From Deltaproteobacteria bacterium (GTDB lineage: Bacteria > Desulfobacterota > B13-G15 > RBG-16-54-18): DNA of 64,000 nucleotides. The translations under genes and the position numbers were made by a program. This document shows, piece by piece, positions 25,638-44,922 of the stretch (positions are counted from its first letter, which is position 1; each line of letters begins with the position of its first letter). The stretch spans positions 10,169 through 74,168 of the forward strand of contig JAFDHG010000007.1 of assembly GCA_019308925.1 (NCBI GenBank), given 5' to 3'. The notes beneath the pieces were generated by a model. The model made no database searches. It had not been told where the DNA came from and saw only the letters and a program-made list of their open reading frames with translations.

Positions 25638-27031
25638 TGGAATGGAGGCTGATCAATAATAGCGAGGGAGAGGTAGCAGACCTGCTGGCCCTGCCAGCGG
25701 CCGTGGCTGAGGCCAGAATAGCGGGGCGCTATATCCTCACCTCAAAACCCATACCGGAGACGATAATCATTCAACGGGTTAAGAAAAAAGGAATTTTAGC
25801 TGGTGCGGAGGTGGTGGTAGACAGGGAGGAAGCAGAAAGCGAGGAAATAGAGATCGCCGTGCAGCCCAGAGGAGGGCGTGGGGGTATGCGCCCGGCAGAG
25901 ACGATCTCTCTTCAGGAGCTGATGCTTAAGGCAAAGGACAAGTTCACCCCAGTGGATAACCCACCTGATGAGACCGCAGCCCTCATCTATACCTCTGGCA
26001 CTACGGGAAATCCCAAGGGGGTAATGCTCACCCACGGCAACTTCCTGGCCGAGTGCGAGGCGACCTCAGAGATCATAACCACCACTGAGGGGGATAGATT
26101 CGCCACCTTGGTCCCCTTTTTCCATATCTATGGTCTGGCCATAGGTCTGGTGGTCTCCCTCTTTCGAGGGTGCGGCTCGGTCTTATTCCCCCAATACTCC
26201 CCACGCCAGTTCCTGAAGCGGATGGGTAAGGAAAAGGTCTCCATCCTCATCGCCATCCCCACTCAATACCATCACCTCTTGCTTGCCGCCAAGAAGAGGT
26301 CCTTCGCCCAGCCCTCTCTAAAATACTGCATATCTGGGGCTGCTCCCTTGCCCGTAAATGTTATCCAGGCCTTCAAGGAGGCCTTCGGGGTCGATATCAC
26401 CGAGGGGTATGGTCTTACCGAGACCACGGCCGCCGTGGCAGTAAACCCTCGGGAAAAGACAAAACCAGGATCTGTGGGTATATCAGTTAAGGGCGTGCAG
26501 ATAAAGATAGGGGATGACCAGGGGAATGCGTTGTCTCCTCACAAGGCAGGGGAGGTCCTCGTAAAGGGCAAGGTGGTGATGAATGGGTATTATAACCTCC
26601 CGGAGGAGACCCAAGAGGTCTTGAGAGATGGGTGGTTGTGCACAGGCGATATAGGATATCAAGACGAGGAGGGATACCTCTATATCACCGAGAGAAAGAA
26701 GGATATCATCATAAAAGCAGGATTCAACATCTCCCCGGCGGAGATAGAGGAGCTCTTGTGCTCCCATCCTAAGGTGAAGGAGGCAGCCGTAGTGGGCCAG
26801 AAGGAAAAGGAGGGGAGGGAGGAGGCCATAAAGGGCTTTATAGTCCCTGTTGAGGGGGAGGAGATAACCCCTGCGGAGATCATCGGATACTGCAGGATGA
26901 AACTGGCCCCCTATAAGGTGCCTGATGAGATAGAGTTTACGGAAGGCCTGCCTAAGAGTGCCACCGGCAAGGTAGTGAGAAGGGAGCTGCGGCAGGGATA
27001 TAAAGACATGAGGGTCATAGAGAGGGGATGA
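25637..27031 (+). CDS. AMP-dependent synthetase/ligase (acyl-CoA ligase) lacking the canonical first ~100 residues
   Basis: Motifs YTSGTTGNPKG, TEGYGLTET, GDIGYQDEEGYLYITER and PKSATGKVVRREL are present. TSGTTG sits at residue 119 instead of about 160-190. Confidence 0.8.
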   Translation: MEWRLINNSEGEVADLLALPAAVAEARIAGRYILTSKPIPETIIIQRVKKKGILAGAEVVVDREEAESEEIEIAVQPRGGRGGMRPAETISLQELMLKAKDKFTPVDNPPDETAALIYTSGTTGNPKGVMLTHGNFLAECEATSEIITTTEGDRFATLVPFFHIYGLAIGLVVSLFRGCGSVLFPQYSPRQFLKRMGKEKVSILIAIPTQYHHLLLAAKKRSFAQPSLKYCISGAAPLPVNVIQAFKEAFGVDITEGYGLTETTAAVAVNPREKTKPGSVGISVKGVQIKIGDDQGNALSPHKAGEVLVKGKVVMNGYYNLPEETQEVLRDGWLCTGDIGYQDEEGYLYITERKKDIIIKAGFNISPAEIEELLCSHPKVKEAAVVGQKEKEGREEAIKGFIVPVEGEEITPAEIIGYCRMKLAPYKVPDEIEFTEGLPKSATGKVVRRELRQGYKDMRVIERG

Positions 27032-27915
27032 ATTTAGGAAGACTTCTAGAGGAAAGGGCCAAGGAGTATCCCAAAAAGGCCGCCCTCCTCTATGAGGGAA
27101 AGGCCATAAGCTTTGAGGAGCTCAACAAGAACGTAAATCGGCTTGCAAATGGCCTGAAGGGTCTCGGTATAGAGGGAGGGGACAGGGTGGCCCTCATGCT
27201 CCCCAATACACCGGAGTTTGTCTATTCTTTCTTTGCATGCCAGAAGCTGGGCGCAATAGCGGTCCCCTTTAATACAATGCACAAAGGTGGTGAGATACTT
27301 TACATTCTTAAAGATTGCGCGGCCAAGGCTATCATCACCCTTAACAGCGCAGTCCCCCTTATCAATGAGATCCGACCAGAACTTCCCCATTTGCAATACA
27401 TCATCACTACCGGGGAGCGCAACCTGACCTTTGCCGATCCTGAATCCACGCTCTTCCTCCAGGGGGTGTTATCCAAGGGTATCTTCAAGGACCTAGATGA
27501 TGCCTATAGGAAGATAGGGGATGCCTTAGTACAGGGGTTGTGGGAGTTGGGATTGAAAGAGATATGGTATAAGCACAGGGGAAGCCTGCGGATAGGGGGA
27601 AGGAAGCTGGCGGGTTTTTATTTCTCCGAAATCGAAGGCTTATATATCTTAAATATCATCTGTTTCCTTGCCCCTTTTGACCCCTCGGACTTCTTTTCCG
27701 TCATCTGGGTTCCACCAGAGGTAAAGGACAAGGTCTTAGAGCCCTTGACCTCGATCCAGGAGGAGTTGGGGAGGCGGCCCACCGACGAGGAATTTCGAGA
27801 GGCAATCTTGGGCGCCCTGGAGAAGGGGTTTGGAATTAAATTAAAAGAGGGTACCTTCACAAGGGATGAACGATTTGGTTACGAAAAACATAAGGCTGTG
27901 GCCAAGAAAAAATAA
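27028..27915 (+). CDS. Mosaic protein: an ANL (acyl-CoA ligase) N-terminal subdomain (~140 aa) fused to a fragment resembling the C-terminus of lipoate-protein ligase (LplA)
   Basis: The N-terminus is the typical ligase start (KKAALLYEGKAISFEELNKNVNRLANGL...GDRVALMLPNTPEF...). The C-terminus is LplA-like (RIGGRKLAG...EEFREAILGALEKGFGIKLKEGTFTRDE). Confidence 0.6.
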   Translation: MNLGRLLEERAKEYPKKAALLYEGKAISFEELNKNVNRLANGLKGLGIEGGDRVALMLPNTPEFVYSFFACQKLGAIAVPFNTMHKGGEILYILKDCAAKAIITLNSAVPLINEIRPELPHLQYIITTGERNLTFADPESTLFLQGVLSKGIFKDLDDAYRKIGDALVQGLWELGLKEIWYKHRGSLRIGGRKLAGFYFSEIEGLYILNIICFLAPFDPSDFFSVIWVPPEVKDKVLEPLTSIQEELGRRPTDEEFREAILGALEKGFGIKLKEGTFTRDERFGYEKHKAVAKKK

Positions 27916-32274: not shown

Positions 32275-33444
32275 TTACCCAGCCTTAAACTCAATGGTGT
32301 CGCCGTTGCCGAGGTAGGCCGTATCCTTAGAACGGTACCGGGCCGTACCCCTCACCACCGGGTATCCAGCATCGATAAACTTCTTGGCCGTAACGATCCC
32401 GGTGCAGTGATTACATCCCACCTTCTCAAAGCCGTATTTCCCCAATGAGATGACCAGGTCGTCATATTTTGGATCCCAGTCCTCAAACGGTGAGATGTGC
32501 AGACCGCCATAGACACCGTGGAGCTTCTCATACTTGATCTCCCGATACGCGGTCTCGGCGAATTGGATGATGCTCTGGTGGCAACATCCGGTCACAGAAA
32601 CCAACCCAGCATCTTTGACATTGAAGTACAGGGATAGCTCACCATAGACACGACAGATGATCGGTATGGCGAACACATACATCGCAACACCAGGCATGAA
32701 GGGGTGCAATCCGGCCTTGAGGTAATTAACCTTGCCCCGGTGTCCGCTGTCCTTGACGTACTGGCGCCCTTCCGGGTAGAACCCATCAGCACAATACATC
32801 GTTATTGTCGGATCGTATTTCATGGTTACTGGCAGGCCCCAGAAGTGGTCAAAGTGCTCATGGGAGATGAACAGACACTCAATCTCCCTATTCGCCAGCA
32901 TCCTATCGATACCTTCCCGCTTAAAACACTCCTCGGTCCATGCATACGACCATCCAGAATCCAGGAGTAGCTTTTTACGGCTCCCATCAAGGAATTCCAC
33001 ATCGATCAGGCAAGCATACCCGCCTGCATTCTCCGGATGCACCGCATTCTCCATCTGAAATTCCCAGGCCTTCTCCAGCTTATCAGGAAGATACTGCTTG
33101 ATCTCTTTCATCCCCTTTTCGTAGGAACCCTTGCCAAGCTTGCCATTTTTCTCAGCAAAGGGGGGCCAATTATAGGTATACTGGTTGACGAGCAGACCAC
33201 CTGCGCCCTTGATATCACCCATCAGGTTATCGTTATCGAACCAGCTCGTTTCGCTAATATTGGTGATCTTGATGCTCTTGCATTCTCCAATATCAGCGGT
33301 TCCCCTCTTTACAGCGGGAAAGTGGCGCTTGCGCCATGGAGAATAGGAGTAGACACCCATCGCTCCGATGGCCCCTACCGCACCTCCGGCGGCCAAGCCT
33401 TTGATAAAATCCCGCCGACTAACGCCTTCTTGCTTTTTTGCCAT
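32275..33444 (-). CDS. Tat-exported metallo-beta-lactamase (MBL)-fold hydrolase
   Basis: The start at 33444 has a GAAGGAGGTG RBS. Twin-arginine signal SRRDFIKGLAAGGAVGAIGAMG. MBL motif HEHFDHF (HxHxDH) plus downstream His/Asp ligands. Confidence 0.8.
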   Translation of the reverse strand: MAKKQEGVSRRDFIKGLAAGGAVGAIGAMGVYSYSPWRKRHFPAVKRGTADIGECKSIKITNISETSWFDNDNLMGDIKGAGGLLVNQYTYNWPPFAEKNGKLGKGSYEKGMKEIKQYLPDKLEKAWEFQMENAVHPENAGGYACLIDVEFLDGSRKKLLLDSGWSYAWTEECFKREGIDRMLANREIECLFISHEHFDHFWGLPVTMKYDPTITMYCADGFYPEGRQYVKDSGHRGKVNYLKAGLHPFMPGVAMYVFAIPIICRVYGELSLYFNVKDAGLVSVTGCCHQSIIQFAETAYREIKYEKLHGVYGGLHISPFEDWDPKYDDLVISLGKYGFEKVGCNHCTGIVTAKKFIDAGYPVVRGTARYRSKDTAYLGNGDTIEFKAG

Positions 33445-33517
33445 CGTCTTCACCTCCTTCACTGTCCCATCACTAGGGGCAAAAACCCCTGCGCAGGACA
33501 GCAAGTTTTAGATTTTT

Positions 33518-33625
33518 CTAGGTGTAAAGCCATGTTAGCTTTCCCAAGACCGGGAGCAGCCATACGGTGACGAAATAAATTACCACTCCCAAGACTATCC
33601 CTATGACAAACCCTGCTTTAAACAT
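33518..33625 (-). CDS. 35-aa single-transmembrane peptide (MFKAGFVIGIVLGVVIYFVTVWLLPVLGKLTWLYT); not in the ORF track
   Basis: Manual translation. A strong GGAGGAGG RBS lies 7 nt upstream of the ATG. It sits exactly between the membrane protein and the MBL gene. Confidence 0.45.
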   Translation of the reverse strand: MFKAGFVIGIVLGVVIYFVTVWLLPVLGKLTWLYT

Positions 33626-33649
33626 CTTCTATCCTCCTCCTCAAAGGTT

Positions 33650-34903
33650 TTATTTTTTTACCTTTTTCCATCCTGGCCAGTTGTCCATGAACCAGTGATT
33701 AATCAGCATCAAGTTGATCAACCAGATAGTCGGGATCATAGGAAACTGCTGCGGATGGGAGTAGCCCTTCTGAGTCCCCAGGGTCAGGTGGCTGATATTG
33801 TAGTAGATCCAGTACACTGCCATCCCGCCGAAGATGGCGACGAGGGTACGGATCACCCAGTTGACAGGCGTGCTGAATCTATTGGGCCAGTTACCACAGT
33901 AGAAGGTAAGAAACAGGGCCGGGAGCAAGAAGAAGACCATGGTCTCTCCTACATGCAGCCAGCGCCAATCAGGGGCAAAGAGCCTGCGTGTGCCGCGGAT
34001 GGCCTCACCCCACCACAATTCCTGGGCAAAGTAGAGGAAGAAAAAGAAGCAGAAGGCAACAGCGATGATCCCAAAGAAGGAAGAAAACCCTCGCAGGACA
34101 GGCCTCTTAATAAGTCTGTAGGGGTAGCGCTCCCAGATAGTTTCTGTCAACCACACCGATATGGTACAGCACATAATCCAGGCCACATGGAAGTTTCCAC
34201 TTACCGTATTGGCAAATTTCTCCCAATAGGGCGGGCATATGGCGCAAAAATACTGCCAAGGATAGGAAAGGATGCCCATATGCGAATGCATGGTGCATAA
34301 GTAGATGATGGTGCACAGGAAGAAGGTGAAGATGAGCACGGTAACCCCCTTGGCAGGTTGCCTAAGGTCTTGCCAAGGCCACATATTGCTGAACGATACC
34401 GGCCAGGCAGGGCTCAACCAGGAAGCGAGGGCCGCAAACATCAGACAGGCCAATGCCGCATACTCGATGGCAAAGAAGTCCGTGATTCCGGGTATCTTAG
34501 TGGACTGGGCCGGATTGAAATAGGCCATGGCAAAGTTCCCCAAGATCCCTTCAAAGAATCCTTTTATCAATACCATCAATATCACGAACATTAGGGCCGT
34601 CATCACAATCCCCTTCAACACCGGGTTCCAGTTCTCAATCTGCCGACGCCTGAAGGGCCAGTAGTGCATGATGTAGACCTGCCAGATCAGAACGATAAGT
34701 ATCCACCTGGTGTACATGTAGCCAACATAAGGGGTATACATCCTGAGCCAACCTCTGGGGTCCTGGAAGATCCACCAAGTAATATAGAACACCACTAACA
34801 AGAAAACGGTATTTGCAATCTGCGGCCATGGTGCTGGCCACCTGGGAACCAATTTCCGCTCCTCCAGATAATCCTCTCCAAATATCTCTTTTGCCTTAGC
34901 CAT
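33650..34903 (-). CDS. Trp/Tyr-rich polytopic integral membrane protein (about 10-12 transmembrane segments), family not recognised
   Basis: 417 aa, strongly hydrophobic with many aromatic residues. Co-directional with and upstream of the peptide and MBL genes. Confidence 0.7.
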   Translation of the reverse strand: MAKAKEIFGEDYLEERKLVPRWPAPWPQIANTVFLLVVFYITWWIFQDPRGWLRMYTPYVGYMYTRWILIVLIWQVYIMHYWPFRRRQIENWNPVLKGIVMTALMFVILMVLIKGFFEGILGNFAMAYFNPAQSTKIPGITDFFAIEYAALACLMFAALASWLSPAWPVSFSNMWPWQDLRQPAKGVTVLIFTFFLCTIIYLCTMHSHMGILSYPWQYFCAICPPYWEKFANTVSGNFHVAWIMCCTISVWLTETIWERYPYRLIKRPVLRGFSSFFGIIAVAFCFFFFLYFAQELWWGEAIRGTRRLFAPDWRWLHVGETMVFFLLPALFLTFYCGNWPNRFSTPVNWVIRTLVAIFGGMAVYWIYYNISHLTLGTQKGYSHPQQFPMIPTIWLINLMLINHWFMDNWPGWKKVKK

Positions 34904-34971
34904 ATTGCACCCTCCTTAATTTGAGATACATACTAACATTTAAAAACCCCCTCATTGGGAACTAACTAGTC

Positions 34972-35268
34972 TCACCTCCTTTCCCTTGATCTTTTCTTCA
35001 CCCGTTGCTCGGGTTTAAAGACCTCCCTGGCGATCTCCAGCTTGCTCTTGCCCTCAACCTCAATCCCCATCTTCATCGCCTCCTCTATGAGGAGCTCACC
35101 AGACTCGGAGAGCAGCGGATAACAACTTTCAAAGGACTTAAAGTAATCATCCTCTTCTTTCAGAGAATCTCCCTCTTTATACGAATCCATCATTTCGTTG
35201 AGAAACCGAGCAGCCTTGGAAAAAACATCTCTGGTTAGAAAATCTCTTCTGCTCTTATCAATGGCCAT
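34972..35268 (-). CDS. Hypothetical 98-aa acidic protein beginning with an SRRDFL motif but with no hydrophobic h-region
   Basis: Clean ORF between the regulator and the membrane-protein gene. Not recognisable as a signal peptide. Confidence 0.5.
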   Translation of the reverse strand: MAIDKSRRDFLTRDVFSKAARFLNEMMDSYKEGDSLKEEDDYFKSFESCYPLLSESGELLIEEAMKMGIEVEGKSKLEIAREVFKPEQRVKKRSRERR

Positions 35269-35332: not shown

Positions 35333-35782
35333 TCAAGCGGCCAACAATCGCTTCCTGTTAAACCGGAAATAATCGCACTCTTCGCATGGAACTGTACAAT
35401 TAATTTTCTGATGCCCCACCTCCTCCCTGAGGGCATAACAGTTTAGGGCCTTAGTTTTGTATACGAGACACTGCTCACAACTTAGGCCAGGGCGGACGTG
35501 AGTATCTATTGTTGTGCCATAGAATTCCCAGCAAAATGCTGTGGTCTCGTCGGTATGGTCGTAGACGCTTAAGTCCACACCTGTTTCTTGCGGGTCTGGA
35601 AATGGAATTCTATTTTTCCTTAAGAATGCGACCAGATCTTTGGGTAAAATTCGCCAATGGCCCGTTTTACCAATCCTATACCCCTTAAGTTTATCCTGTT
35701 GGAGCCATCGTTTTACTGTCTCCCGTGAATGGTGACATAATTTGGCCACTGCACCTGTTGTAAAGCTCTTCTTTATCCCCAT
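35333..35782 (-). CDS. HTH regulator (excisionase/MerR-like HTH_17 N-terminus) with a seven-Cys C-terminal domain
   Basis: N-terminus TTGAVAKLCHHSRETVKRWLQQDKLKGYRIGKTGHWRI. C-terminal CxxC and CxxxCxxC-type spacing suggests metal or Fe-S binding. Confidence 0.7.
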   Translation of the reverse strand: MGIKKSFTTGAVAKLCHHSRETVKRWLQQDKLKGYRIGKTGHWRILPKDLVAFLRKNRIPFPDPQETGVDLSVYDHTDETTAFCWEFYGTTIDTHVRPGLSCEQCLVYKTKALNCYALREEVGHQKINCTVPCEECDYFRFNRKRLLAA

Positions 35783-35888: not shown

Positions 35889-35917
35889 TTGCTATACCTA
35901 AGCGGTTATGATATAAT
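35889..35917 (+). promoter_or_regulatory. Sigma70-like promoter (TTGCTA-17-TATAAT) for the COG0523-fusion gene
   Basis: It is followed by an AAGGAGA RBS 10 nt upstream of the GTG start at 35941. Confidence 0.45.
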
Positions 35918-35940
35918 ATGTTTAAGGAGAATGATCTGTC

Positions 35941-37884
35941 GTGGCAACGCTTAAAGATCTACAGCCTTCGGGGATCGTAACCCAACCTGATTTGGGATTT
36001 CCGGATCTAATTGAAAATTTTTTTATCAGACTCTTCTATGAACCCCGCATCAAGGAACTGATCGGCTGGATCGGTATTGCCTATAGTGAGACCTCCTCAA
36101 GAGGCTGGACCATCAGGGTAAAGGGGCAGAAGGGCATCTACGGCCTCCAGTACGGGGGATGTGAGAAGGAAGATCCCACCTGGAATCACGGGATCTTCTA
36201 TATCCAATACTTTCCTGCTGCGGATGAGGATATCTTAGATTGTTTCTCCATACACGAAAATATCCTCCGTCAAGACCCATCATTCGAAGGCTTACTCCGT
36301 GAGAGACCACCAGGGATTGATCCTCTCGATGCTCAATTCATCGTGGGAAGGTTGATTCTGTCTATCGACGCTGAGGAGAACAACCTCTTTCTTTCTCTTT
36401 GGGCGCCTGAAAAATGGCGCGAGATCCTCAAAGATGGGCTCAGTTTGCCTCAAGATGATGGTACTATGGTTGAGGCTATTCCCGCCGGGGGGATGGACCG
36501 CGATGTCCCAGCCTATACTCTATCGTGGCCCTTTTTTGACAAAATCGTTCTTACTGCTGCGTACCACCTCAAGCAGCCTCCAGTCTTTGTGACCTTAAAG
36601 GGGCGTCCAGCCCAGGTCTTCGAGATCACTGGCGAAAATCAATACACAATTAAACACAACCCGGATATCGAAGAACGGTGTCTCTCCGTTGGGTTCGGCC
36701 CTGAACTGGGAGAGGGAACAGATGATCCTCGACTCGACTTGGTGAAGAGCTTCTTCCCCGCAGAGGCCTCTTCTCCCTCTCCCCCTCCCTCAAGAGTGAT
36801 CTGGTCTATAACATCACAACAGCCAGATCCCGCAAAGGGGAACCCTCTCTGGTGGGAAGCCCCCTCTTGGGAGGAAACGCTTAAACTGAAGGGGGTCAAG
36901 GCCTTAGGATTAGACTACCGACCCCCTCTATTGTTTATTACTGGCTTTTTGGGGAGCGGCAAGACCACACTGCTCAACCAGGTTGTCGAACATTACTCCG
37001 GGATGCGCAACGAATTCGTAGCCATAATCCAAAACGAGGTGGGGCAAATTAACGTGGACGGCGAATCCACAGATGGAGCAATCGCTGTTACTGAATTAGA
37101 GGAGGGTTGTGTCTGCTGCACCCTTCTCGGGGAGTTTCGAAGGGCCATCCGCAAGATCTGTATCGAGTATGAACCAGACTTGATCATTGTGGAGACAACC
37201 GGAGTTGCCGATCCCCACAATATCCTGGCGGAACTGCCTCAACTCAAGCCCTTTGTGCGCTTTGACTCTATGGTCACAGTCGTGGATGGGGCCAACCTTG
37301 AACGGATACTAAAGGAATACCCTGTGGCTACAGCACAGATTGAGGCCTCAGACTTAGTCCTTTTGAATAAATGCGACCTGATGGACGATCAAACCCTTGC
37401 CTGGGCACAGCCGACGCTTGAGAGGATCAATCCACGGGCGACCATTGTTCATACTGTCAATGCCCAAATTCCTCCAGGGCTTTTGCTCTGCACCCAAGAC
37501 GACATTGATACACCTCATCCAGGACAGCCTTCGGATAGGAAAAAAATGCCCCTGTCTGAGCGTCATTTGGCCGAACGCCCCAGTTTGGCCCTTGACTCAC
37601 AAAACATCGAGACCGTCACCGTAGTGCTGGAAGGTCGCTTTAAGGAAGTCAAATTAATTCAGCTATTGGATAATCTGTCTGACTCTGTCTATCGATTGAA
37701 AGGATTTGTTAATATAGAGGGTTTGGAAAAAACCCAATTGCTACAATATGTTGCCGGCCGCTATGAATTTGAAACCCCGCCCAAACCCCATCCCGGGCCC
37801 AATACACTGGTTTTCATCGGTCGCCATCTCAACGAAGAGGCCCTTAAAGCCAGCTTGAAGTACTGCTTAGCAGAGGAGGGCTAA
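35941..37884 (+). CDS. COG0523 (CobW/ZigA/YciC-type G3E) GTPase with a ~300-aa N-terminal extension of unknown function
   Basis: The C-terminal half has a P-loop (GFLGSGKTTLLN), the metal-binding CVCC motif (EEGCVCCTL), a switch region (VETTGVADP), NKCD (LLNKCDL) and a CobW_C-like tail. The N-terminal 300 aa match nothing recognised. Confidence 0.8.
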   Translation: MATLKDLQPSGIVTQPDLGFPDLIENFFIRLFYEPRIKELIGWIGIAYSETSSRGWTIRVKGQKGIYGLQYGGCEKEDPTWNHGIFYIQYFPAADEDILDCFSIHENILRQDPSFEGLLRERPPGIDPLDAQFIVGRLILSIDAEENNLFLSLWAPEKWREILKDGLSLPQDDGTMVEAIPAGGMDRDVPAYTLSWPFFDKIVLTAAYHLKQPPVFVTLKGRPAQVFEITGENQYTIKHNPDIEERCLSVGFGPELGEGTDDPRLDLVKSFFPAEASSPSPPPSRVIWSITSQQPDPAKGNPLWWEAPSWEETLKLKGVKALGLDYRPPLLFITGFLGSGKTTLLNQVVEHYSGMRNEFVAIIQNEVGQINVDGESTDGAIAVTELEEGCVCCTLLGEFRRAIRKICIEYEPDLIIVETTGVADPHNILAELPQLKPFVRFDSMVTVVDGANLERILKEYPVATAQIEASDLVLLNKCDLMDDQTLAWAQPTLERINPRATIVHTVNAQIPPGLLLCTQDDIDTPHPGQPSDRKKMPLSERHLAERPSLALDSQNIETVTVVLEGRFKEVKLIQLLDNLSDSVYRLKGFVNIEGLEKTQLLQYVAGRYEFETPPKPHPGPNTLVFIGRHLNEEALKASLKYCLAEEG

Positions 37885-37921: not shown

Positions 37922-39028
37922 TCATATCCTCACCAGCTCATACCCCCTACTGCCCAGCCCCATCTCCTCACCATATGCCAACTGGACCTCCCAGTCTACC
38001 TCCCGATGTACCGCCCGGAACTTGTCCTCCCCGGGGGGGAGCCCTGTCGTATACGGTGAGTGCGGGTTGCCCGGTTGCGCCCTTACCAAATCGACAGAGG
38101 CCTGGTCAATGGCCACCGGGTCATCTGAGGCGAGGATCCCCACATCCCCCACGATGGGGGCATCGCTGTGTCCGTAGCAGTCGCAGTACGGGCTTACCTG
38201 GGTGACAAAGCTCACAAACGCCACCCTCTCCCCTTTATTTTTCAACGCCCCCGCCGCATACTCCACCATCTTGCGCTGGAATTCCGGAGCAACCTCATCC
38301 CACTGGATCTTGATGGCCCCCTGCGGGCAGATCACATAACACTCTCCACACCCCACACACCTATCAGGGTCGATAAAGGCCTTCTCGTCCTTTATCTCGA
38401 TGGCCCCATGCGCACACCACTCGACGCAGGTTCCACAGCCAACACACGCTTTCCTCTTCACCTTCGGTGCTACGGTGGAGTGCTGGCTCAGCTTCCCCTT
38501 CCGGCTGGCACACCCCATACCCACGTTTTTTATAGCCCCACCAAAGCCGGTGAGTTCGTGACCTTTAAAGTGCGTCGCCACAAGCAGAGAATCAGCAAAG
38601 TAGATCTCATGGGCGATGCTCACTTCATGGTAGGTCTTCCCCTCTATTGGTACCCGAACAGAGGCGTTACCCCTCAGGCCGTCTGCAATAATGATCGGGG
38701 CCATCACCACAGAGAAGGAAAAGCCGTTCTCCACCGCCGTTATGAGATGGGAGACCGCATCGGACCTGGTGCCACCATAGAGGGTGTTGGTGTCGGTGAG
38801 AAAGGGCTTCCCCCCCAGTTCCTTCACCCGCTCGACGATCCGGCGCAGGAAGATGGGCCTGATATAGGCGGTGTTTCCCCGCTCGCCGAAGTGGAGCTTG
38901 ATGGCCACCGTCCCCTTGGGCCTGATCCTCTTGGGGAGCTCCACCCTCTCTAATAACTCCCCCACCTTGTCCAGAAGATTTCTTTTGACCTCGGCCCTAA
39001 GGTCAGCGAAATAGACCGTGCTCGCCAT
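37922..39028 (-). CDS. DUF362-family protein fused to a 2x[4Fe-4S] ferredoxin domain
   Basis: Two CxxCxxCxxxCP motifs (CVGCGTCVEWCAHG; CVGCGECYVICPQG) inside a DUF362-like scaffold. Confidence 0.7.
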   Translation of the reverse strand: MASTVYFADLRAEVKRNLLDKVGELLERVELPKRIRPKGTVAIKLHFGERGNTAYIRPIFLRRIVERVKELGGKPFLTDTNTLYGGTRSDAVSHLITAVENGFSFSVVMAPIIIADGLRGNASVRVPIEGKTYHEVSIAHEIYFADSLLVATHFKGHELTGFGGAIKNVGMGCASRKGKLSQHSTVAPKVKRKACVGCGTCVEWCAHGAIEIKDEKAFIDPDRCVGCGECYVICPQGAIKIQWDEVAPEFQRKMVEYAAGALKNKGERVAFVSFVTQVSPYCDCYGHSDAPIVGDVGILASDDPVAIDQASVDLVRAQPGNPHSPYTTGLPPGEDKFRAVHREVDWEVQLAYGEEMGLGSRGYELVRI

Positions 39029-41113: not shown

Positions 41114-42478
41114 ATGAAGGCGCGGATAAAATTGGAGCTCATCACCCCGGCGGTGGAGGACAATGCCCCCATCCCCAACCTCTCCCTCGCCACGGTGGCC
41201 GCCCTGACCCCGCCCGAGGTTGAGATCTCCTTCACCGATGACCTCGTCAACCCTATCGACCTGGATGGCGACCTGAAAGACGTGGACCTAGTGGGGATCA
41301 CCTGCTCTACCAAGACCGCCCCCAGGGCCTACGAGATCGCCAGGTCCTATCGCGAGCAGGGAACTCCCGTAGTCCTGGGGGGAATCCACCCCACGGCCAT
41401 GCCCGAAGAGGCCCTGGGGCACTGCGATGCCGTGGTGGTAGGGGAGGCAGAGGAGAGCTGGCCCTCCCTGATAGAGGACTTCCAAAGGGGAAAACTGGAG
41501 CGGATCTATCGGCAGGGGGGGTTCACCCCTCCGGAACAGATCCCTCAGGCCCGCCGCGACATCTACAACCCCAAGGACTACTTTCCCATTGACTCCCTGC
41601 AGGCCACCCGAGGTTGCCCCTATCTGTGTGACTTCTGCTCTGTGAGGAGGTTTTTCGGGGGGACCTTTCGCTACCGCCCCTTAGAGGATGTAATAGAGGA
41701 GATCCGCTCCCTGCATCACAAGGTGATCATGTTTGCCGATGACAATATCGTGGGCCACCCCCGCTACTCCAGAGAGCTACTAGAGGCCCTCATCCCCCTG
41801 CGGAAGAGGTGGATCGGCCAGGCCTCCCTGGCCGGCTTAGAGGATGAGGAAATGATCAAGCTCATGGTGAAAAGCGGCTGTGTGGGGCTTCTCATCGGCT
41901 TTGAGTCCATCTCCGAGGAAAACATCAAACTATCGAGAAAGTATCAGAACCGGCCTGCTGAATATCAGGGGATCATTCACAACCTGCACCGGCACGGCAT
42001 CGCCATCTGGGCCTCCTTTCTGTTCGGCTTCGACCACGATGACAAAGAAATCTTTGGACGGACGGTACGCTTCGCCATAGAGGCCAAGTTCTTCTCGGTG
42101 GTCTTCGCAATCCTCACCCCCTACCCCGGCACCGCCCTCTACGAACGCCTAAATGAGGAAGGGAGGCTGACCGATGAGAGGTGGTGGTTATTAAAGGATC
42201 AGGAAGCCTACGCCCCCCATTTCCACCCCCGGGGGATGACCAGGGAGGAGCTCCGGGAGGGGTGGGAATGGGCCTGGCAGGAGTACTATTCCTATCCCTC
42301 CATCCTGAGGAGGTTTCAGTGGGAGTATCCGCCCACCTTGGTCAACAAAGCTATCTACTTCCCTTTTAACCTCATTCAACGTCGCTTCGTCCGCAAAAAG
42401 ATCCTCAGGGGGGAGAGGCTCAGGTGGACCAAGGTTCCCTGGAAGAGTGGAACGGCTCAGCCTTGGACGTTGATGTGA
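41114..42478 (+). CDS. B12-binding-domain radical SAM protein (class B)
   Basis: N-terminal cobalamin-binding Rossmann-like region and a CxxxCxxC motif (CPYLCDFC). 454 aa. Confidence 0.85.
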   Translation: MKARIKLELITPAVEDNAPIPNLSLATVAALTPPEVEISFTDDLVNPIDLDGDLKDVDLVGITCSTKTAPRAYEIARSYREQGTPVVLGGIHPTAMPEEALGHCDAVVVGEAEESWPSLIEDFQRGKLERIYRQGGFTPPEQIPQARRDIYNPKDYFPIDSLQATRGCPYLCDFCSVRRFFGGTFRYRPLEDVIEEIRSLHHKVIMFADDNIVGHPRYSRELLEALIPLRKRWIGQASLAGLEDEEMIKLMVKSGCVGLLIGFESISEENIKLSRKYQNRPAEYQGIIHNLHRHGIAIWASFLFGFDHDDKEIFGRTVRFAIEAKFFSVVFAILTPYPGTALYERLNEEGRLTDERWWLLKDQEAYAPHFHPRGMTREELREGWEWAWQEYYSYPSILRRFQWEYPPTLVNKAIYFPFNLIQRRFVRKKILRGERLRWTKVPWKSGTAQPWTLM

Positions 42479-42539: not shown

Positions 42540-43436
42540 TTGAGGAAGAATCTTTTTTTGGCCCTTCTCCTTTTCCTCTTGATGCTGGGATGCACAGGAG
42601 GGGAGGTGGGTTTGAAAGGGCTCCTCCCCTCTCCCACCGAGGTGCAGGGGGTCACGAAAGAAGGCTGAGCTCAGGTCTATAAAGGAACAAAGCTCTTCGA
42701 CTACATGGATGGGGGGGCGGAGCTCTTTTACGAATACCACTTTGAGCAGGCGTGCGTGCAGAGGTATCAGACCCCCCACGGGGAAGCCACGGTGGAGATA
42801 TACCAGATGGACCTCCCCGCCCATGCCTATGGGATCTACACCTTCGACACCCAGGGGGAGCACCCCTTGATAGGACAGGACGCCACCTATGAGAGGGGGC
42901 TTTTGACCTTCTGGAAGGGGAGCTACTTCGTCAGGGTCTTCTCCCAGAACGAGGGGCTCAAGGAGACTATCCTGGCCCTGGGGCAGACCATCGCCCAAAA
43001 GATCCCCCAGGAAGGGGCCAGACCCGATATTCTGATCTCCCTCCCCCAACAAGGAATGATACAGGACTCCCTCCTCTATTTCCGCGGGATGATCGCCCTG
43101 AACAACGCCTATTTCCTCTCCCACCAGAACGTCCTCTCCCTGGGGGAGGGCGCCGAGGGGATCACCTTTAAATATACGCCAGGGGCTCAACCCCTCAGGG
43201 CCATCATGGTGCGCTATCCGGGTAGTCCCCAGGCCGATGAGGCCTTCCAGGCCTTTTGTTCATCTAAAGTCATCAAAGAAGGCGTCTTGAAAGATGGGGT
43301 CTTTGGGGGAAAGAGCAGGAGGGGATACGGAGGGGCCAAATTGGTGGGGGATCTCTTGGTCCTGGTCTTCGACGGGAAAGACCCACGTATCGTCACAAAC
43401 GTCTTAAAATCTCTACCGCATAAAGGGGGTAGGTGA
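42540..43436 (+). CDS. Lipoprotein gene (TTG start, lipobox LMLGC) interrupted by a single in-frame TGA at 42666-42668. It could be a pseudogene, a read-through or selenocysteine codon, or a sequencing error.
   Basis: The signal-peptide segment (42540-42665) and the 243-aa track ORF (42705-43436) are in the same frame, separated only by the TGA. A GGAGG RBS precedes the TTG. Confidence 0.5.
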
Positions 43437-44161
43437 TGAAGAGGGTAGCTATAGCCATCTTTCTGGGGGCAGCAGCCGGTGGGGTCGGGATTATTGTCTA
43501 TGAATTGATTGACCAATGGATCTGGGGCTGGTTGACCACCGGGATCCTCCTGGGAATAGTCTCCCAGGTCCCTCACCTTGCCAAGGGGAGGTGGTTCTGG
43601 TGGGGACTTATAGGGGGTGGCACTATCCTAGTCGGCTGGTACCTAGGCAGGGTGATAGGATATCCCGTCTGGCTCGCCTGGCCCCTCCTGGGGGCGGTTT
43701 TCGGTACCCTCTGCTCTCGTAACGGGTTGGGTTGGAGGATCGGCGGGGGCCTGGTCGGCCTTCTGGGTGGACTCTTGGGGATAGGCACCCTCCCCCTGAT
43801 CACCATGGTCCTCTTGCCGTACCTAGGGCTTCCCACCACCTTTGACTACGACATGGACGTGCTAGGGTTGGTGGTGGCAGGGGCCTTTATCGGGGGGACC
43901 ACTGCTAGCTTTCACCACGATTACCCCCTCACCTGCCCTTCAGCCAGGCAGTGGTCCCCGGGGCACAAGATGCCCGAGCAGGGATCCCCAACCCCTTTGT
44001 GGAGGGGGACAAGCCCCTGGTGGTCTCTGTCCAGGGGAAGGCCCCGGAGCAGATGCTCCGCGCCGCATTGGAGGCCCTGGGTGGCCTCAAGCCTCTGGTG
44101 GGGGGTGGAAAGGATGCCCTCATCAAGCCCAACTTTGTCTTCCCCCAGCCTTTCCCCATAA
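43433..44161 (+). CDS. Gly/Trp-rich integral membrane protein (~5 transmembrane segments). The last ~75 codons overlap the next gene out of frame and look non-native.
   Basis: ATGA overlap with the lipoprotein gene. The hydrophobic core ends near 43930. The tail is low-complexity. Confidence 0.55.
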   Translation: MMKRVAIAIFLGAAAGGVGIIVYELIDQWIWGWLTTGILLGIVSQVPHLAKGRWFWWGLIGGGTILVGWYLGRVIGYPVWLAWPLLGAVFGTLCSRNGLGWRIGGGLVGLLGGLLGIGTLPLITMVLLPYLGLPTTFDYDMDVLGLVVAGAFIGGTTASFHHDYPLTCPSARQWSPGHKMPEQGSPTPLWRGTSPWWSLSRGRPRSRCSAPHWRPWVASSLWWGVERMPSSSPTLSSPSLSP

Positions 44162-44922
44162 CCACAGATCCGGAGATGATCTTTTTGATGACCCACCTCC
44201 TGCGGGAGTCAGGGGCCTCAGGGGTGGAGGTCTTCGACTCCCCGGGGACCTACCTGGTAGGAACCGAGCGGGAGACCTTTGACTTCTATGACCTCATACA
44301 CAAAGGAAAGGAAAGAGGGATTACAGTCACCTACGGTGATGCGGGCCGCCGCCGGGAATATGTGAAGACCAGAAAGGAGGGGTGGCGGGCTTACCAGGAG
44401 ATCATCGTGCACAAGAAGGTTTATCAAGCCCAGGTAATCGTCAACATGCCCTGCCTTAAGAGGCACCATACTTCCTTCCTGACCTGCGCCCTGAAGAACA
44501 ACTTTGGTGCCATCTATGGGCCCCAGCGCTGGGATGCTCACATCCGGGGAGAGGGTTTCCGAAAGGGGATCAAAGGGGCTAGTGAGAGGGCCAAGACCCC
44601 TTTCCGGGATGAAACCCACTTCATGACTGCTCTGGCCGAGTTCGCCGATGCGGTGCGCCCCGAACTTTCCATCGTGGACGCCAGGACCATCCTCATCAAA
44701 GGAGGCCCCACCAGGGGGAAGGGAGAGCTCAAGAAGGGGGTCAACAGGTTCATCCTGAGCGGTGATATAGTGGCCTTGGACACCTACTGCTCGCGGATCA
44801 TGGAGGAGCACGACGAGACCTACACCACCGAGATGATACTGCCCTACCTGAGAGTGGCCGAGAGGCTAGGGCTGGGGACCATGGACCTGAACAAGGTGAA
44901 GGTGATCGAGCTAAGGGTATAA
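43951..44922 (+). CDS. DUF362-family protein without a ferredoxin domain
   Basis: GTG start. A DUF362-like N-terminus (…EALGGLKPLVGGGKDALIKPNFV…). 323 aa. Confidence 0.7.
   Translation: MVPGAQDARAGIPNPFVEGDKPLVVSVQGKAPEQMLRAALEALGGLKPLVGGGKDALIKPNFVFPQPFPITTDPEMIFLMTHLLRESGASGVEVFDSPGTYLVGTERETFDFYDLIHKGKERGITVTYGDAGRRREYVKTRKEGWRAYQEIIVHKKVYQAQVIVNMPCLKRHHTSFLTCALKNNFGAIYGPQRWDAHIRGEGFRKGIKGASERAKTPFRDETHFMTALAEFADAVRPELSIVDARTILIKGGPTRGKGELKKGVNRFILSGDIVALDTYCSRIMEEHDETYTTEMILPYLRVAERLGLGTMDLNKVKVIELRV

What the first reader, a model, noticed from the sequence alone, without database searches (positions are those of the whole stretch)
35941..37884. COG0523 GTPase carrying a ~300-aa N-terminal domain of unknown function
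Canonical COG0523/CobW proteins are about 320-400 aa. Here the recognisable GTPase begins only around residue 320 (LLFITGFLGSGKTT...EEGCVCCTL...NKCD). The preceding 300 residues contain no motif I can place. They are Pro/Trp-rich in parts (NPLWWEAPSWEE) and end in a Ser/Pro linker (SSPSPPPS). A novel fusion partner may specify the client of this metallochaperone.
Basis: seen in the sequence. Interest (0 to 1): 0.5.

Follow-up and report, generated by a model that had tools for sequence, protein, structure and literature searches.

The report
Metallochaperone GTPase fused to novel adaptor domain
This gene really does join a metal-delivering GTPase to a previously undescribed 320-residue domain, and that domain is always encoded beside the same exported metallo-enzyme and membrane protein, which points to the enzyme this chaperone most likely serves.

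Summary

The fusion is not a frame error. Relatives of 600-680 aa recur across Thermodesulfobacteriota, SAR324, Spirochaetota and Rhodospirillales.

The N-domain also exists alone (~320-340 aa) and fused to a small protein that carries a twin-arginine-like motif. In 70 of 71 informative loci it lies beside the same uncharacterised cluster: that small protein, a Trp-rich membrane protein with no Pfam match, a 35-aa mini-TM peptide and a Tat-exported metallo-β-lactamase-fold enzyme. The window holds all of these at 32275-35268(−).

So the N-domain is the system-specific module and the GTPase is the optional add-on. My best reading, which is inferred, is that the N-domain works with the small protein to direct the metallochaperone to the Tat-exported enzyme, so that it is loaded with metal in the cytoplasm before export.

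This is a new variant of a known kind. The system's substrate and metal are unknown.

The parts
35889..35917 (+). sigma70-like promoter (TTGCTA-17 nt-TATAAT, extended TG)
   Evidence: 10 of 12 matches. This is a consensus match only. It lies in the AT-rich divergent intergenic region.
35925..35930 (+). Shine-Dalgarno-like AAGGAG, 10 nt upstream of the GTG start
   Evidence: Read directly from the sequence.
35941..37884 (+). Whole gene: N-domain + COG0523 GTPase fusion, 647 aa
   Evidence: ORF. P0001 is 100% identical, and about 100 full-length relatives exist.
35941..36894 (+). N-domain (residues 1-318): unannotated compact α/β domain and signature of the system
   Evidence: Model pLDDT 94.3, pTM 0.92. 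No Pfam, NCBIfam or PDB match. 222 representative relatives. No conserved Cys or His.
36841..36888 (+). Conserved C-terminal 'LWW' helix of the N-domain (residues 301-316; W304 and W305 are conserved in over 80% of members)
36928..37449 (+). G3E/COG0523 GTPase domain (residues 330-503), containing Walker A (36943-36966), GCVCC (37105-37119), Walker B (37183-37203) and NKCD (37366-37377)
   Evidence: Pfam PF02492, E 5e-43. Motifs are conserved in 58-63 of 63 fused relatives. Coordinates.
37606..37869 (+). CobW_C domain (residues 556-643)
   Evidence: Pfam PF07683, E 1e-17.
35333..35782 (-). HTH_17 (excisionase/MerR-like) regulator with a Cys-rich C-terminal half. It is the first gene of the divergent operon and is specific to this genome.
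   Evidence: It is not found in the other 90 loci. Relatives carry sigma54-PAS or GntR/FCD regulators instead.
34972..35268 (-). SM: 98-aa small protein with N-terminal SRRDFL (a twin-arginine consensus) but no hydrophobic h-region. It is the cytoplasmic partner of the N-domain.
   Evidence: It is fused to the N-domain in P0140, P0196 and P0260.
33650..34903 (-). MEM: 417-aa Trp-rich polytopic membrane protein with no Pfam match. Invariant MHxHM, CC and His/Glu/Asp positions.
   Evidence: It is 62-86% identical across phyla.
33518..33625 (-). 35-aa single-TM mini-protein. It is a separate ORF in 21 loci and is fused to the C-terminus of MEM in Desulfovibrionales and Desulfobacterales.
32275..33444 (-). 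Tat-signal MBL-fold metalloenzyme (COG1237-like), the likely client. The true start is probably the ATG at 33444.
   Evidence: TAT_signal and Lactamase_B hits. RR, HxHxDH, GCCH, GGLH and CNHC are invariant in 81 sequences. PDB relatives 2p4z, 7dck and 3h3e. Start coordinate.

Best explanation
The gene encodes a dedicated maturation factor for a neighbouring, uncharacterised envelope system. It has two modules.

- The C-terminal half is a canonical, probably active COG0523 metallochaperone GTPase. Its metal site is the CxCC motif and its switch is GTP hydrolysis.
- The N-terminal 318 residues are a separate, structurally novel, non-metal-binding domain that belongs to the system and not to the GTPase.

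The proposed mechanism is as follows. The N-domain acts as a cytoplasmic adaptor or chaperone. It works together with the small twin-arginine-motif protein SM. It engages the precursor of the Tat-exported MBL-fold enzyme, plausibly through twin-arginine-type N-terminal peptides in the manner of Tat 'proofreading' chaperones. The fused GTPase can then load the enzyme's binuclear metal site in the cytoplasm, before the folded holo-enzyme is exported by Tat to work with the membrane protein.

What is shown:
- The fusion is real and conserved.
- The N-domain is an autonomous fold.
- It co-occurs almost obligately with SM, MEM and MBL, with or without the GTPase.
- It is fused to SM in some lineages.

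What is inferred:
- That the MBL is the metal client.
- That the N-domain binds SM and the precursor.
- That loading precedes export.

The identity of the metal and the substrate of the system are unknown.
For: 1. GTPase competence.
- Pfam cobW and CobW_C are both found.
- Across fused relatives, Walker A is kept in 63 of 63, GCxCC in 63 of 63, Walker B in 61 of 63 and NKxD in 58 of 63.
- The profile matches E. coli YjiA (1nij) at E 3.7e-57.

2. The N-domain is a real domain.
- The alignment-based model has pLDDT 94.3 and pTM 0.92.
- 222 representatives match at E<=1e-3 in an exhaustive search.

3. Modularity.
- Among the representatives, 73 are N-domain+GTPase, 71 are N-domain alone and 3 are SM+N-domain.
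- Stand-alone genes were verified in context in L006-L009, L013, L052, L061, L075, L078, L084, L091 and L092.
- The SM-N-domain fusion was verified in context in L090.

4. Association with the cluster.
- Of 80 loci anchored on MEM in named genomes, 60 have the fusion, 7 have a stand-alone N-domain, 3 have an N-domain cut by a contig end and 9 have flanks too short to judge. Only 1 (L036) lacks it despite long flanks.
- In 46 of the 60 fusion loci the gene lies less than 1 kb downstream of the MBL on the same strand.
- Every N-domain context examined has MEM and MBL.

5. The MBL is a Tat substrate with a metal site.
- It passes the curated TAT_signal cut-offs.
- RR and the HxHxDH, CxH, H and CNHC ligands are invariant in 81 sequences.

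6. The N-domain is unlikely to bind metal itself, because it has no conserved Cys or His.

7. SM carries S/T-R-[RK]-x-F-[FL] with no h-region, tolerates RK, and is fused to a cytoplasmic domain. Its motif is therefore a docking peptide and not an export signal.

8. Precedents from established knowledge.
- REMP chaperones encoded in cis coordinate cofactor insertion and Tat targeting (PMC4464133).
- Clients of bacterial COG0523 proteins are otherwise hardly known (PMC11672702).
Against: - No physical interaction was tested.
- The N-domain has no sequence or fold similarity to known Tat chaperones such as TorD, DmsD, NarJ or NapD.
- The GTPase is dispensable in several lineages whose MBL keeps the same ligands. 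Metal insertion by this protein therefore cannot be essential to the system in general.
- The Rosetta-stone fusion links the N-domain to SM, not to the MBL, so the direct partner may not be the MBL.
- MEM has invariant MHxHM and CC motifs that could themselves handle a metal.
- Some loci carry sulfur-trafficking genes (DsrE, DsrC/TusE-like, rhodanese) or NifX-like genes, which hint at chemistry beyond simple metal loading.
Confidence: 0.5

Rival explanations
1. Membrane-docking model. The N-domain (with SM) tethers the GTPase to the cytoplasmic face of the membrane protein MEM. MEM is the real partner. It could be a metal permease that passes metal to the chaperone or receives metal from it. 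It could also be a membrane enzyme whose own site is metallated. The MBL would be served only indirectly.
For: - MEM is the best conserved component (62-86% identity across phyla).
- MEM carries invariant MHxHM, CC, four further His and several acidic residues.
- In stand-alone loci the N-domain gene directly follows MEM.
- ExbB/ExbD/TonB genes follow the fusion gene in L001 and a few other loci.
- The N-terminal region of SM looks like an amphipathic helix that could sit at a membrane interface.
Against: - MEM has no detectable similarity to any transporter or metal-handling family. Pfam finds nothing at E<=10 and a PDB profile search finds nothing. The 'AAT transporter' label from JGI and UniRef is unsupported.
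- A Tat signal on the MBL (invariant RR in 81 of 81) argues that its cofactor is inserted in the cytoplasm, which a periplasmic relay would not need.
- In most fused loci the gene follows the MBL, not MEM.
Confidence: 0.2
2. Client-in-cis or enzyme model. The N-domain is itself an enzyme or metalloprotein that acts in the cytoplasm on the product of the periplasmic MBL after import by MEM. The fused COG0523 would supply the N-domain's own metal.
For: - The operon logic of periplasmic hydrolase, membrane permease and cytoplasmic protein is common.
- GntR/FCD and sigma54-PAS regulators are typical of catabolic operons.
- The domain is large (318 aa) and well ordered.
Against: - The 149-sequence alignment has no conserved Cys or His and only two moderately conserved acidic residues (E96 at 72%, D186 at 66%). 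The conserved positions are mostly Gly, Pro and aromatic residues, as in a scaffold.
- The domain diverges much faster (24-47% identity) than the enzymes beside it.
- The weak fold matches are to chaperone and ligand-binding α/β folds, not to enzymes.
- Its fusion to SM, a small peptide-like protein, suggests a binding role.
Confidence: 0.1
3. Non-metal switch model. The COG0523 module acts as a GTP-dependent assembly or targeting switch for the SM-MEM-MBL complex and not as a metal donor. The comparison is with COG0523 relatives that have non-metallochaperone roles.
For: - NCBIfam lists a COG0523-type 'ribosome hibernation factor-recruiting GTPase MRF', which matches weakly. Not all family members deliver metals.
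- The GTPase is optional for the system.
Against: - The GCxCC metal-binding motif is invariant in 63 of 63 fused members. That is hard to explain without metal binding.
- The neighbouring enzyme has a conserved binuclear metal site.
Confidence: 0.1
4. Artefact. Two adjacent genes (a stand-alone N-domain gene and a normal COG0523 gene) were merged by a sequencing or assembly frameshift in this window.
For: Stand-alone N-domain genes do exist in other lineages.
Against: - The same 600-680 aa architecture is seen in about 100 independent proteins from many assemblies. These include the closest relatives (645-647 aa, 71-76% identity) and complete isolate genomes.
- Only about 12 residues link the two domains, and they include a family-specific D/Y-R-P motif.
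- None of the stand-alone loci examined has a separate GTPase gene next to the N-domain.
Confidence: 0.01

Closest known systems
COG0523 metallochaperone GTPases (CobW, YjiA, YeiR, ZigA, ZagA, Nha3, eukaryotic ZNG1)
   Same: - The G3E P-loop GTPase with Walker A, CxCC, Walker B and NKxD, followed by CobW_C, is present.
- The nearest solved structure is E. coli YjiA (1nij).
- Like Nha3 (the activator of Fe-type nitrile hydratase), it is encoded beside its presumed client.
- Like ZNG1 (from my own knowledge, not tested here), client recognition would lie N-terminal to the GTPase.
   Different: - It scores far below the curated cut-offs of every named equivalog: CobW 122 against 332 bits, YjiA-type 108 against 361, ZigA 106 against 600.
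- It carries a folded 318-aa N-domain, where the named members have at most a short motif.
- The presumed client is exported by Tat.
- The system includes a small twin-arginine-motif protein and a membrane protein.
- There is no His-rich linker.
Tat-system 'redox enzyme maturation proteins' (TorD/DmsD/NarJ family, NapD)
   Same: - It is a cytoplasmic accessory protein encoded in cis with a cofactor-containing Tat substrate, and the operon association is very strict. Here the figure is 70 of 71 loci. For narJ-narGHI the published figure is 91.7% (PMC4464133).
- A non-exported partner carries a twin-arginine-like N-terminal peptide. From my own knowledge, this recalls the remnant signal peptide of NarG that NarJ binds.
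   Different: - There is no sequence or fold similarity.
- The client is an MBL-fold enzyme and not a molybdoenzyme.
- The chaperone is fused to a metal-inserting GTPase.
- Binding of a signal peptide has not been tested.
HypB/HypA and UreG/UreE-F (G3E GTPases with separate adaptor proteins for Ni insertion)
   Same: The logic is the same: a G3E GTPase paired with a system-specific adaptor that docks it to one metalloenzyme precursor.
   Different: - Here the adaptor is fused to the GTPase and is unrelated in sequence and fold.
- The GTPase belongs to the COG0523 branch (HypB matches only at E 0.0019).
Methanogenesis marker protein 17 (8s7v_G), the best structural match
   Different: - It covers less than a third of the domain, with 2% identity.
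- Foldseek finds nothing at E<=1e-3.
- This is not evidence of homology.

Membership tests
COG0523 / G3E P-loop GTPase (Pfam cobW PF02492 + CobW_C PF07683) | Both Pfam domains score above their gathering cut-offs | tested here: met
   PF02492 scores 147.1 bits (cut-off 20.7) at residues 330-503. PF07683 scores 64.2 bits (cut-off 22) at residues 556-643.
COG0523 / G3E P-loop GTPase | Walker A GxxGxGK[ST], Walker B and NKxD nucleotide motifs | tested here: met
   GFLGSGKT is at 335-342, IIVETTG at 415-421 and NKCD at 476-479. These motifs are conserved in 63, 61 and 58 of 63 fused relatives respectively.
COG0523 / G3E P-loop GTPase | CxCC metal-binding motif between Walker A and Walker B | tested here: met
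   GCVCC is at residues 389-393. GCxCC is present in 63 of 63 fused relatives.
COG0523 / G3E P-loop GTPase | GTP hydrolysis coupled to metal binding and transfer | not testable with these tools
   This needs purified protein.
Named COG0523 equivalogs (CobW TIGR02475, YjiA-type NF008578, ZigA NF038288, MRF NF047431) | Score at or above NCBIfam's curated equivalog cut-off | tested here: not met
   Scores against cut-offs are 122 vs 332, 108 vs 361, 106 vs 600 and 27 vs 375 bits. It is a distinct subfamily.
Tat proofreading chaperones (REMPs: TorD/DmsD/NarJ, NapD), considered for the N-domain | Sequence or fold membership in those families | tested here: not met
Tat proofreading chaperones (REMPs), considered for the N-domain | Cytoplasmic protein encoded in cis with a cofactor-bearing Tat substrate | tested here: met
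   70 of 71 informative loci have the N-domain beside the Tat-signal MBL. No signal peptide or TM segment was noted in the N-domain, and it is fused to a cytoplasmic GTPase.
Tat proofreading chaperones (REMPs), considered for the N-domain | Binds the twin-arginine signal peptide of its substrate | not testable with these tools
Peptide-binding assays are needed.
Tat substrates (for the neighbouring MBL, the presumed client) | N-terminal S/T-R-R-x-F-L-K motif followed by a hydrophobic h-region, passing the curated signal models | tested here: met
   PF10518 scores 26.9 bits (cut-off 22.7) and TIGR01409 scores 29.6 bits (cut-off 16.7). RR is invariant in 81 of 81 sequences, and SRRDFIKGLAAGGAVGAIGAMG is a typical signal.
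Metallo-β-lactamase superfamily (for the presumed client) | HxHxDH motif plus downstream His and Cys/Asp ligands of a binuclear site | tested here: met
   H215-E-H217-F-D219-H220, C307-x-H309, H336 and C364-N-H366-C367 are invariant. Lactamase_B scores 23.1 bits (cut-off 22.7). PDB relatives are 2p4z, 7dck and 3h3e.
APC/AAT amino-acid transporters (the JGI/UniRef label for MEM) | Detectable similarity to AA_permease-type families or to solved APC transporters | tested here: not met
   Four diverse MEM proteins give no Pfam hit at E<=10. A MEM profile finds nothing in PDB sequences at E<=10.

The most novel reading that the evidence does not exclude
The N-domain and the small twin-arginine-motif protein together form a new class of substrate-specific Tat maturation chaperone. 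When fused to COG0523, it couples GTP-driven metal insertion directly to Tat targeting of a non-redox, MBL-fold enzyme. This would be the first bacterial COG0523 whose exported client is hard-wired in the genome. It would also be the entry point to a wholly uncharacterised five-component envelope system that is widespread in sulfate reducers, syntrophs, SAR324, spirochaetes and purple non-sulfur bacteria.
Probability: 0.3. Interest if true: 0.8.

Novelty: new variant of a known kind. Interest (0 to 1): 0.62.

Why it matters
Which proteins COG0523 metallochaperones actually serve is a long-standing gap. A 2024 review states that there are few insights into the clients of bacterial COG0523 proteins beyond CobW and Nha3 (PMC11672702).

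Here the likely client is written into the genome. A dedicated, structurally novel adaptor domain ties the GTPase to one Tat-exported metalloenzyme across hundreds of species. The same domain occurs naturally in three forms: with the GTPase, without it, and fused to SM. That makes the question directly testable through interaction, metallation and export assays in culturable hosts such as Desulfocurvibacter africanus, Pseudodesulfovibrio senegalensis, Malonomonas rubra, Rhodospira trueperi and Roseospira navarrensis.

The finding also flags an entire conserved system that no database annotates. It consists of the membrane protein, the mini-TM peptide, the Tat-exported MBL, the small twin-arginine-motif protein and the N-domain. 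MEM relatives were found in 359 species-level genomes.

Tried and rejected
- **N-domain-only word-index search.** It returned nothing. I rejected this as a false negative after the full-length search and the exhaustive search found the family.
- **Single-sequence structure prediction.** The model had pLDDT 35 and was useless. I replaced it with the alignment-based model.
- **Foldseek against AFDB.** The library was not available, so structural novelty is established against the PDB only.
- **Pattern scan of genomes with the N-domain alignment.** I anchored the scan on the membrane protein instead.
- **JGI/UniRef label 'AAT family amino acid transporter' for MEM.** Pfam and PDB profile searches give it no support, so I did not adopt it.
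- **The downstream DUF362-ferredoxin gene, hemC, the α/β-hydrolase and the HTH_17 regulator as possible parts of the system.** They are not conserved neighbours in the other 90 loci, so I rejected them. The regulator is kept only as a local feature.
- **Literature searches.** Searches combining COG0523 or CobW with Desulfovibrio, MBL and Tat terms found no description of this architecture or cluster.
- **Mirror-tree or covariation analysis between the N-domain and its candidate partners.** I considered it and did not run it. All the genes share one operon history, and about 70 sequence pairs are too few for coupling analysis.
Full report
**1.

The window contains an uninterrupted ORF at 35941..37884 (+). 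It starts with GTG and encodes 647 aa.

- Pfam finds the G3E nucleotide-binding domain cobW at residues 330-503 (147 bits) and CobW_C at 556-643. It finds nothing in residues 1-325, even at E<=1.
- NCBIfam recognises only the GTPase half. Every named equivalog falls far below its curated cut-off: CobW 122 against 332 bits, YjiA-type 108 against 361, ZigA 106 against 600.
- The start is credible for three reasons. A sigma70-like promoter (TTGCTA-17-TATAAT with TG) lies at 35889-35917. An AAGGAG lies 10 nt upstream of the GTG. Homologues also align residue 1 to residue 1.

**2. The fusion is real and conserved**

A search with the N-terminal 320 aa alone returned nothing. That was a false negative of the word index.

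- The full-length query retrieved the identical protein (P0001, from a JGI contig of 86 kb). It also retrieved about 100 proteins of 600-680 aa that cover 93-100% of the query. They come from Syntrophales, Syntrophobacterales and Syntrophorhabdaceae MAGs, Desulfovibrionales isolates, Rhodoplanes and Oleispirillum.
- An exhaustive HMMER scan with residues 1-320 found 222 representatives at E<=1e-3, of which 105 were at E<=1e-10.
- In all fused members the Walker A motif sits near residue 290-340, just after a family-specific D/Y-R-P motif.
- The frame-error explanation is therefore excluded.

**3. The N-terminal region is an autonomous domain without known relatives**

- With a 149-sequence alignment (A1), AlphaFold2 gives a compact α/β domain for residues 1-318 (pLDDT 94.3, pTM 0.92). 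The single-sequence attempt had failed (pLDDT 35).
- The 'NPLWWEA' segment is the most conserved helix of the domain (W304 and W305 in over 80% of members). Only about 12 residues follow it before the first GTPase strand.
- Foldseek against the PDB finds nothing at E<=1e-3.
- The window's N-domain has no PDB sequence match. Ten stand-alone homologues have no Pfam match. Twenty-four diverse members show no recurrent Pfam or NCBIfam family.
- The AFDB library could not be searched, so structural novelty is established against the PDB only.
- The alignment contains no conserved Cys or His. The conserved positions are mostly Gly, Pro and aromatic residues, plus E96 and D186. This fits a binding or scaffold domain better than a metal site or an enzyme.

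**4. The domain belongs to a conserved, unannotated gene cluster**

Contexts of fused homologues all show the same neighbours. The hosts are Pseudodesulfovibrio senegalensis, Desulfocurvibacter africanus, Rhodoplanes roseus and a Syntrophales MAG. The neighbours are:

- a small protein of 82-106 aa;
- a membrane protein of 420-470 aa with no Pfam match;
- an MBL-fold protein of about 390 aa.

The window holds the same genes on the opposite strand:

- SM at 34972-35268;
- MEM at 33650-34903;
- a 35-aa single-TM ORF at 33518-33625;
- the MBL at 32275-33444.

MEM (62-78% identity) and the MBL (57-68%) are much better conserved than the N-domain (24-47%).

I then anchored a scan of species-representative genomes on MEM. 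It found 359 genomes with a relative. I tabulated the best 80 loci with my own HMMs:

| Category | Loci |
|---|---|
| N-domain-GTPase fusion | 60 |
| Stand-alone N-domain with no GTPase in the locus | 7 |
| N-domain cut by a contig end | 3 |
| Flanks too short to judge | 9 |
| No N-domain despite long flanks (L036) | 1 |

Of the 60 fusion loci, 52 have the gene downstream of the MBL on the same strand, 30 of them within 300 nt. The other 8 have the divergent arrangement seen in this window.

Stand-alone N-domain genes of 321-340 aa also sit inside the same cluster in metagenomic loci.

Three representative proteins are SM-N-domain fusions (P0140, P0196, P0260). One of them was verified in context, directly after MBL-MEM.

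The N-domain is therefore the system-specific module. It has been joined to the GTPase, to SM, or to nothing.

**5. What the partners look like**

*The MBL*
- It passes the curated Tat-signal models.
- In 81 sequences it keeps invariant RR together with the HxHxDH, GCCH, GGLH and CNHC motifs.
- The ligands are the same in loci with and without the GTPase.
- Its nearest solved relatives are COG1237-type MBLs of unknown function (2p4z, 7dck, 3h3e).

*SM*
- It always begins with S/T-R-[RK]-x-F-[FL], which is the twin-arginine consensus. An amphipathic, charged segment follows instead of a hydrophobic h-region.
- RK replaces RR in 12 of 36 cases.
- Because SM can be fused to the N-domain, which in turn can be fused to a cytoplasmic GTPase, SM is cytoplasmic. 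Its motif is best read as a docking peptide.
- From my own knowledge, non-exported NarG has a comparable 'remnant' twin-arginine peptide that its chaperone NarJ binds.

*MEM*
- It has invariant MHxHM, CC, further His and acidic residues and many Trp.
- It has no Pfam or PDB relative.
- The JGI/UniRef label 'AAT family amino acid transporter' is unsupported.

*The GTPase half*
- It is intact throughout the family: Walker A in 63 of 63, GCxCC in 63 of 63, Walker B in 61 of 63 and NKxD in 58 of 63.

*Recurrent neighbours*
- Regulators: sigma54-PAS in 31 loci and GntR/FCD in 27.
- A 437-aa PAS protein in 22 loci.
- NifX-like proteins in 15 loci.
- A secreted repeat protein between the MBL and the fusion gene in 22 loci.
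- Occasional ExbB/ExbD/TonB, DsrE, DsrC/TusE-like and rhodanese genes.

The window's own regulator (HTH_17 with a Cys-rich tail, 35333-35782) is not shared. Neither are the downstream DUF362-ferredoxin and hemC genes.

**6. Most likely mechanism**

A Tat signal implies that the MBL folds and receives its cofactor in the cytoplasm. A COG0523 GTPase with an invariant CxCC site, encoded in the same unit, is the obvious metal donor.

I propose that the N-domain, with SM, recruits the GTPase to the MBL precursor. It may do so by recognising twin-arginine-type N-terminal peptides in the manner of Tat proofreading chaperones. Those chaperones coordinate cofactor insertion with Tat targeting and are similarly encoded in cis (PMC4464133). 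GTP hydrolysis would then drive metal transfer before export.

In lineages without the fused GTPase, the N-domain and SM would act as the chaperone alone.

- Shown: the architecture, the fold, the conservation, the co-occurrence and the fusions.
- Inferred: the interactions, the direction and timing of metal transfer, and the identity of the client. I put confidence at about 0.5.

The rivals are:
- docking to MEM as a metal-handling membrane protein (0.2);
- the N-domain as its own client or as an enzyme (0.1, disfavoured by the lack of conserved ligands);
- a non-metal switch role for the GTPase (0.1, disfavoured by the invariant CxCC);
- an assembly artefact (about 0.01).

**7. Comparison with what is known, and novelty**

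The C-terminal half is a bona fide COG0523 member. It is not a member of any named equivalog.

The N-domain works like an adaptor or chaperone, but it is not a member of any described chaperone family. The REMP membership test fails on sequence and fold. It is met only on the criterion of cis-association.

A 2024 review notes that clients of bacterial COG0523 proteins are essentially unknown apart from CobW and Nha3 (PMC11672702). Literature searches found no description of this architecture or cluster.

I classify the finding as a new variant of a known kind: a COG0523 metallochaperone with a novel, system-specific adaptor domain. It is embedded in an uncharacterised five-component envelope system whose substrate and metal remain unknown.

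I score interest at 0.62. The finding is not a new principle. It does turn an open question, how a COG0523 protein finds its client, into a set of direct experiments. It also exposes a widespread unannotated system.

Noticed in passing
window 33518-33625 (-): A 35-aa single-TM mini-ORF (MFKAGFVIGIVLGVVIYFVTVWLLPVLGKLTWLYT) lies between the membrane-protein gene and the MBL gene. It is a separate ORF in 21 related loci. In Desulfovibrionales and Desulfobacterales it is fused to the C-terminus of the membrane protein. Gene callers would probably miss it.
   Followed up: yes
window 34972-35268 (-): A 98-aa protein carries a perfect twin-arginine consensus (SRRDFL) but has no hydrophobic h-region. 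The motif is conserved family-wide as S/T-R-[RK]-x-F-[FL]. In some lineages the protein is fused to the N-domain. The role of a Tat-like motif on a cytoplasmic protein is unexplained.
   Followed up: partly
window 33650-34903 (-): A Trp-rich membrane protein has no Pfam or PDB relative, yet it is 62-86% identical across phyla. It has invariant MHxHM, CC and several His and acidic residues. JGI and UniRef label it 'AAT family amino acid transporter' without detectable support.
   Followed up: partly
window 35333-35782 (-): An HTH_17 (excisionase/MerR-like) DNA-binding domain is fused to a Cys-rich C-terminal half with about 10 Cys, including CxxC pairs. It heads the operon here but is absent from all 90 related loci, which use sigma54-PAS or GntR/FCD regulators. 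It may be a redox- or metal-sensing regulator.
   Followed up: partly
L025, L028, L029 and 19 other loci, between the MBL and the N-domain-GTPase genes (e.g. L028:11675-12454): A conserved signal-peptide protein is built from one or two repeats of about 100 aa (…VIPEMxECMxSH…GSVICYTVEGTT…YKVCW…). It is absent from the window and its function is unknown.
   Followed up: no
L044:6022-6711, L070:5912-6571, L076:13977-14666, L081:12862-13575; L006-L008 (DsrE); L002 (rhodanese genes): Sulfur-trafficking genes (DsrC/TusE-like, DsrE, rhodanese) sit in or next to the cluster in several lineages. NifX-like (Nitro_FeMo-Co) small proteins do so in about 15 loci. These may hint at the system's chemistry.
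   Followed up: no
window 25637-27031 (+) and 27028-27915 (+): These are two overlapping ORFs with an odd split of the AMP-binding enzyme domain. The first matches model positions 125-384 plus the C-terminal domain. The second matches positions 1-123 followed by a lipoate-protein-ligase-like domain. This may be a permuted or split acyl-adenylate enzyme, or two distinct genes.
   Followed up: no
window 37922-39028 (-) and 43951-44922 (+): There are two DUF362 genes, the first with an inserted 2x[4Fe-4S] ferredoxin domain. They lie near a B12-binding radical SAM gene (41114-42478) and a DUF6599 gene (42705-43436). None is conserved with the cluster studied here.
   Followed up: partly
protein P0110: A 766-aa COG0523 protein has its Walker A at residue 340, and only its GTPase part matches the query (29% coverage). 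Other long N-terminal extensions apparently exist in this GTPase family.
   Followed up: no
tool behaviour: The word-indexed homology search returned no hit for residues 1-320, although the identical protein is in the database. Negative results from that tool with divergent domains should be checked with the exhaustive search.
   Followed up: yes
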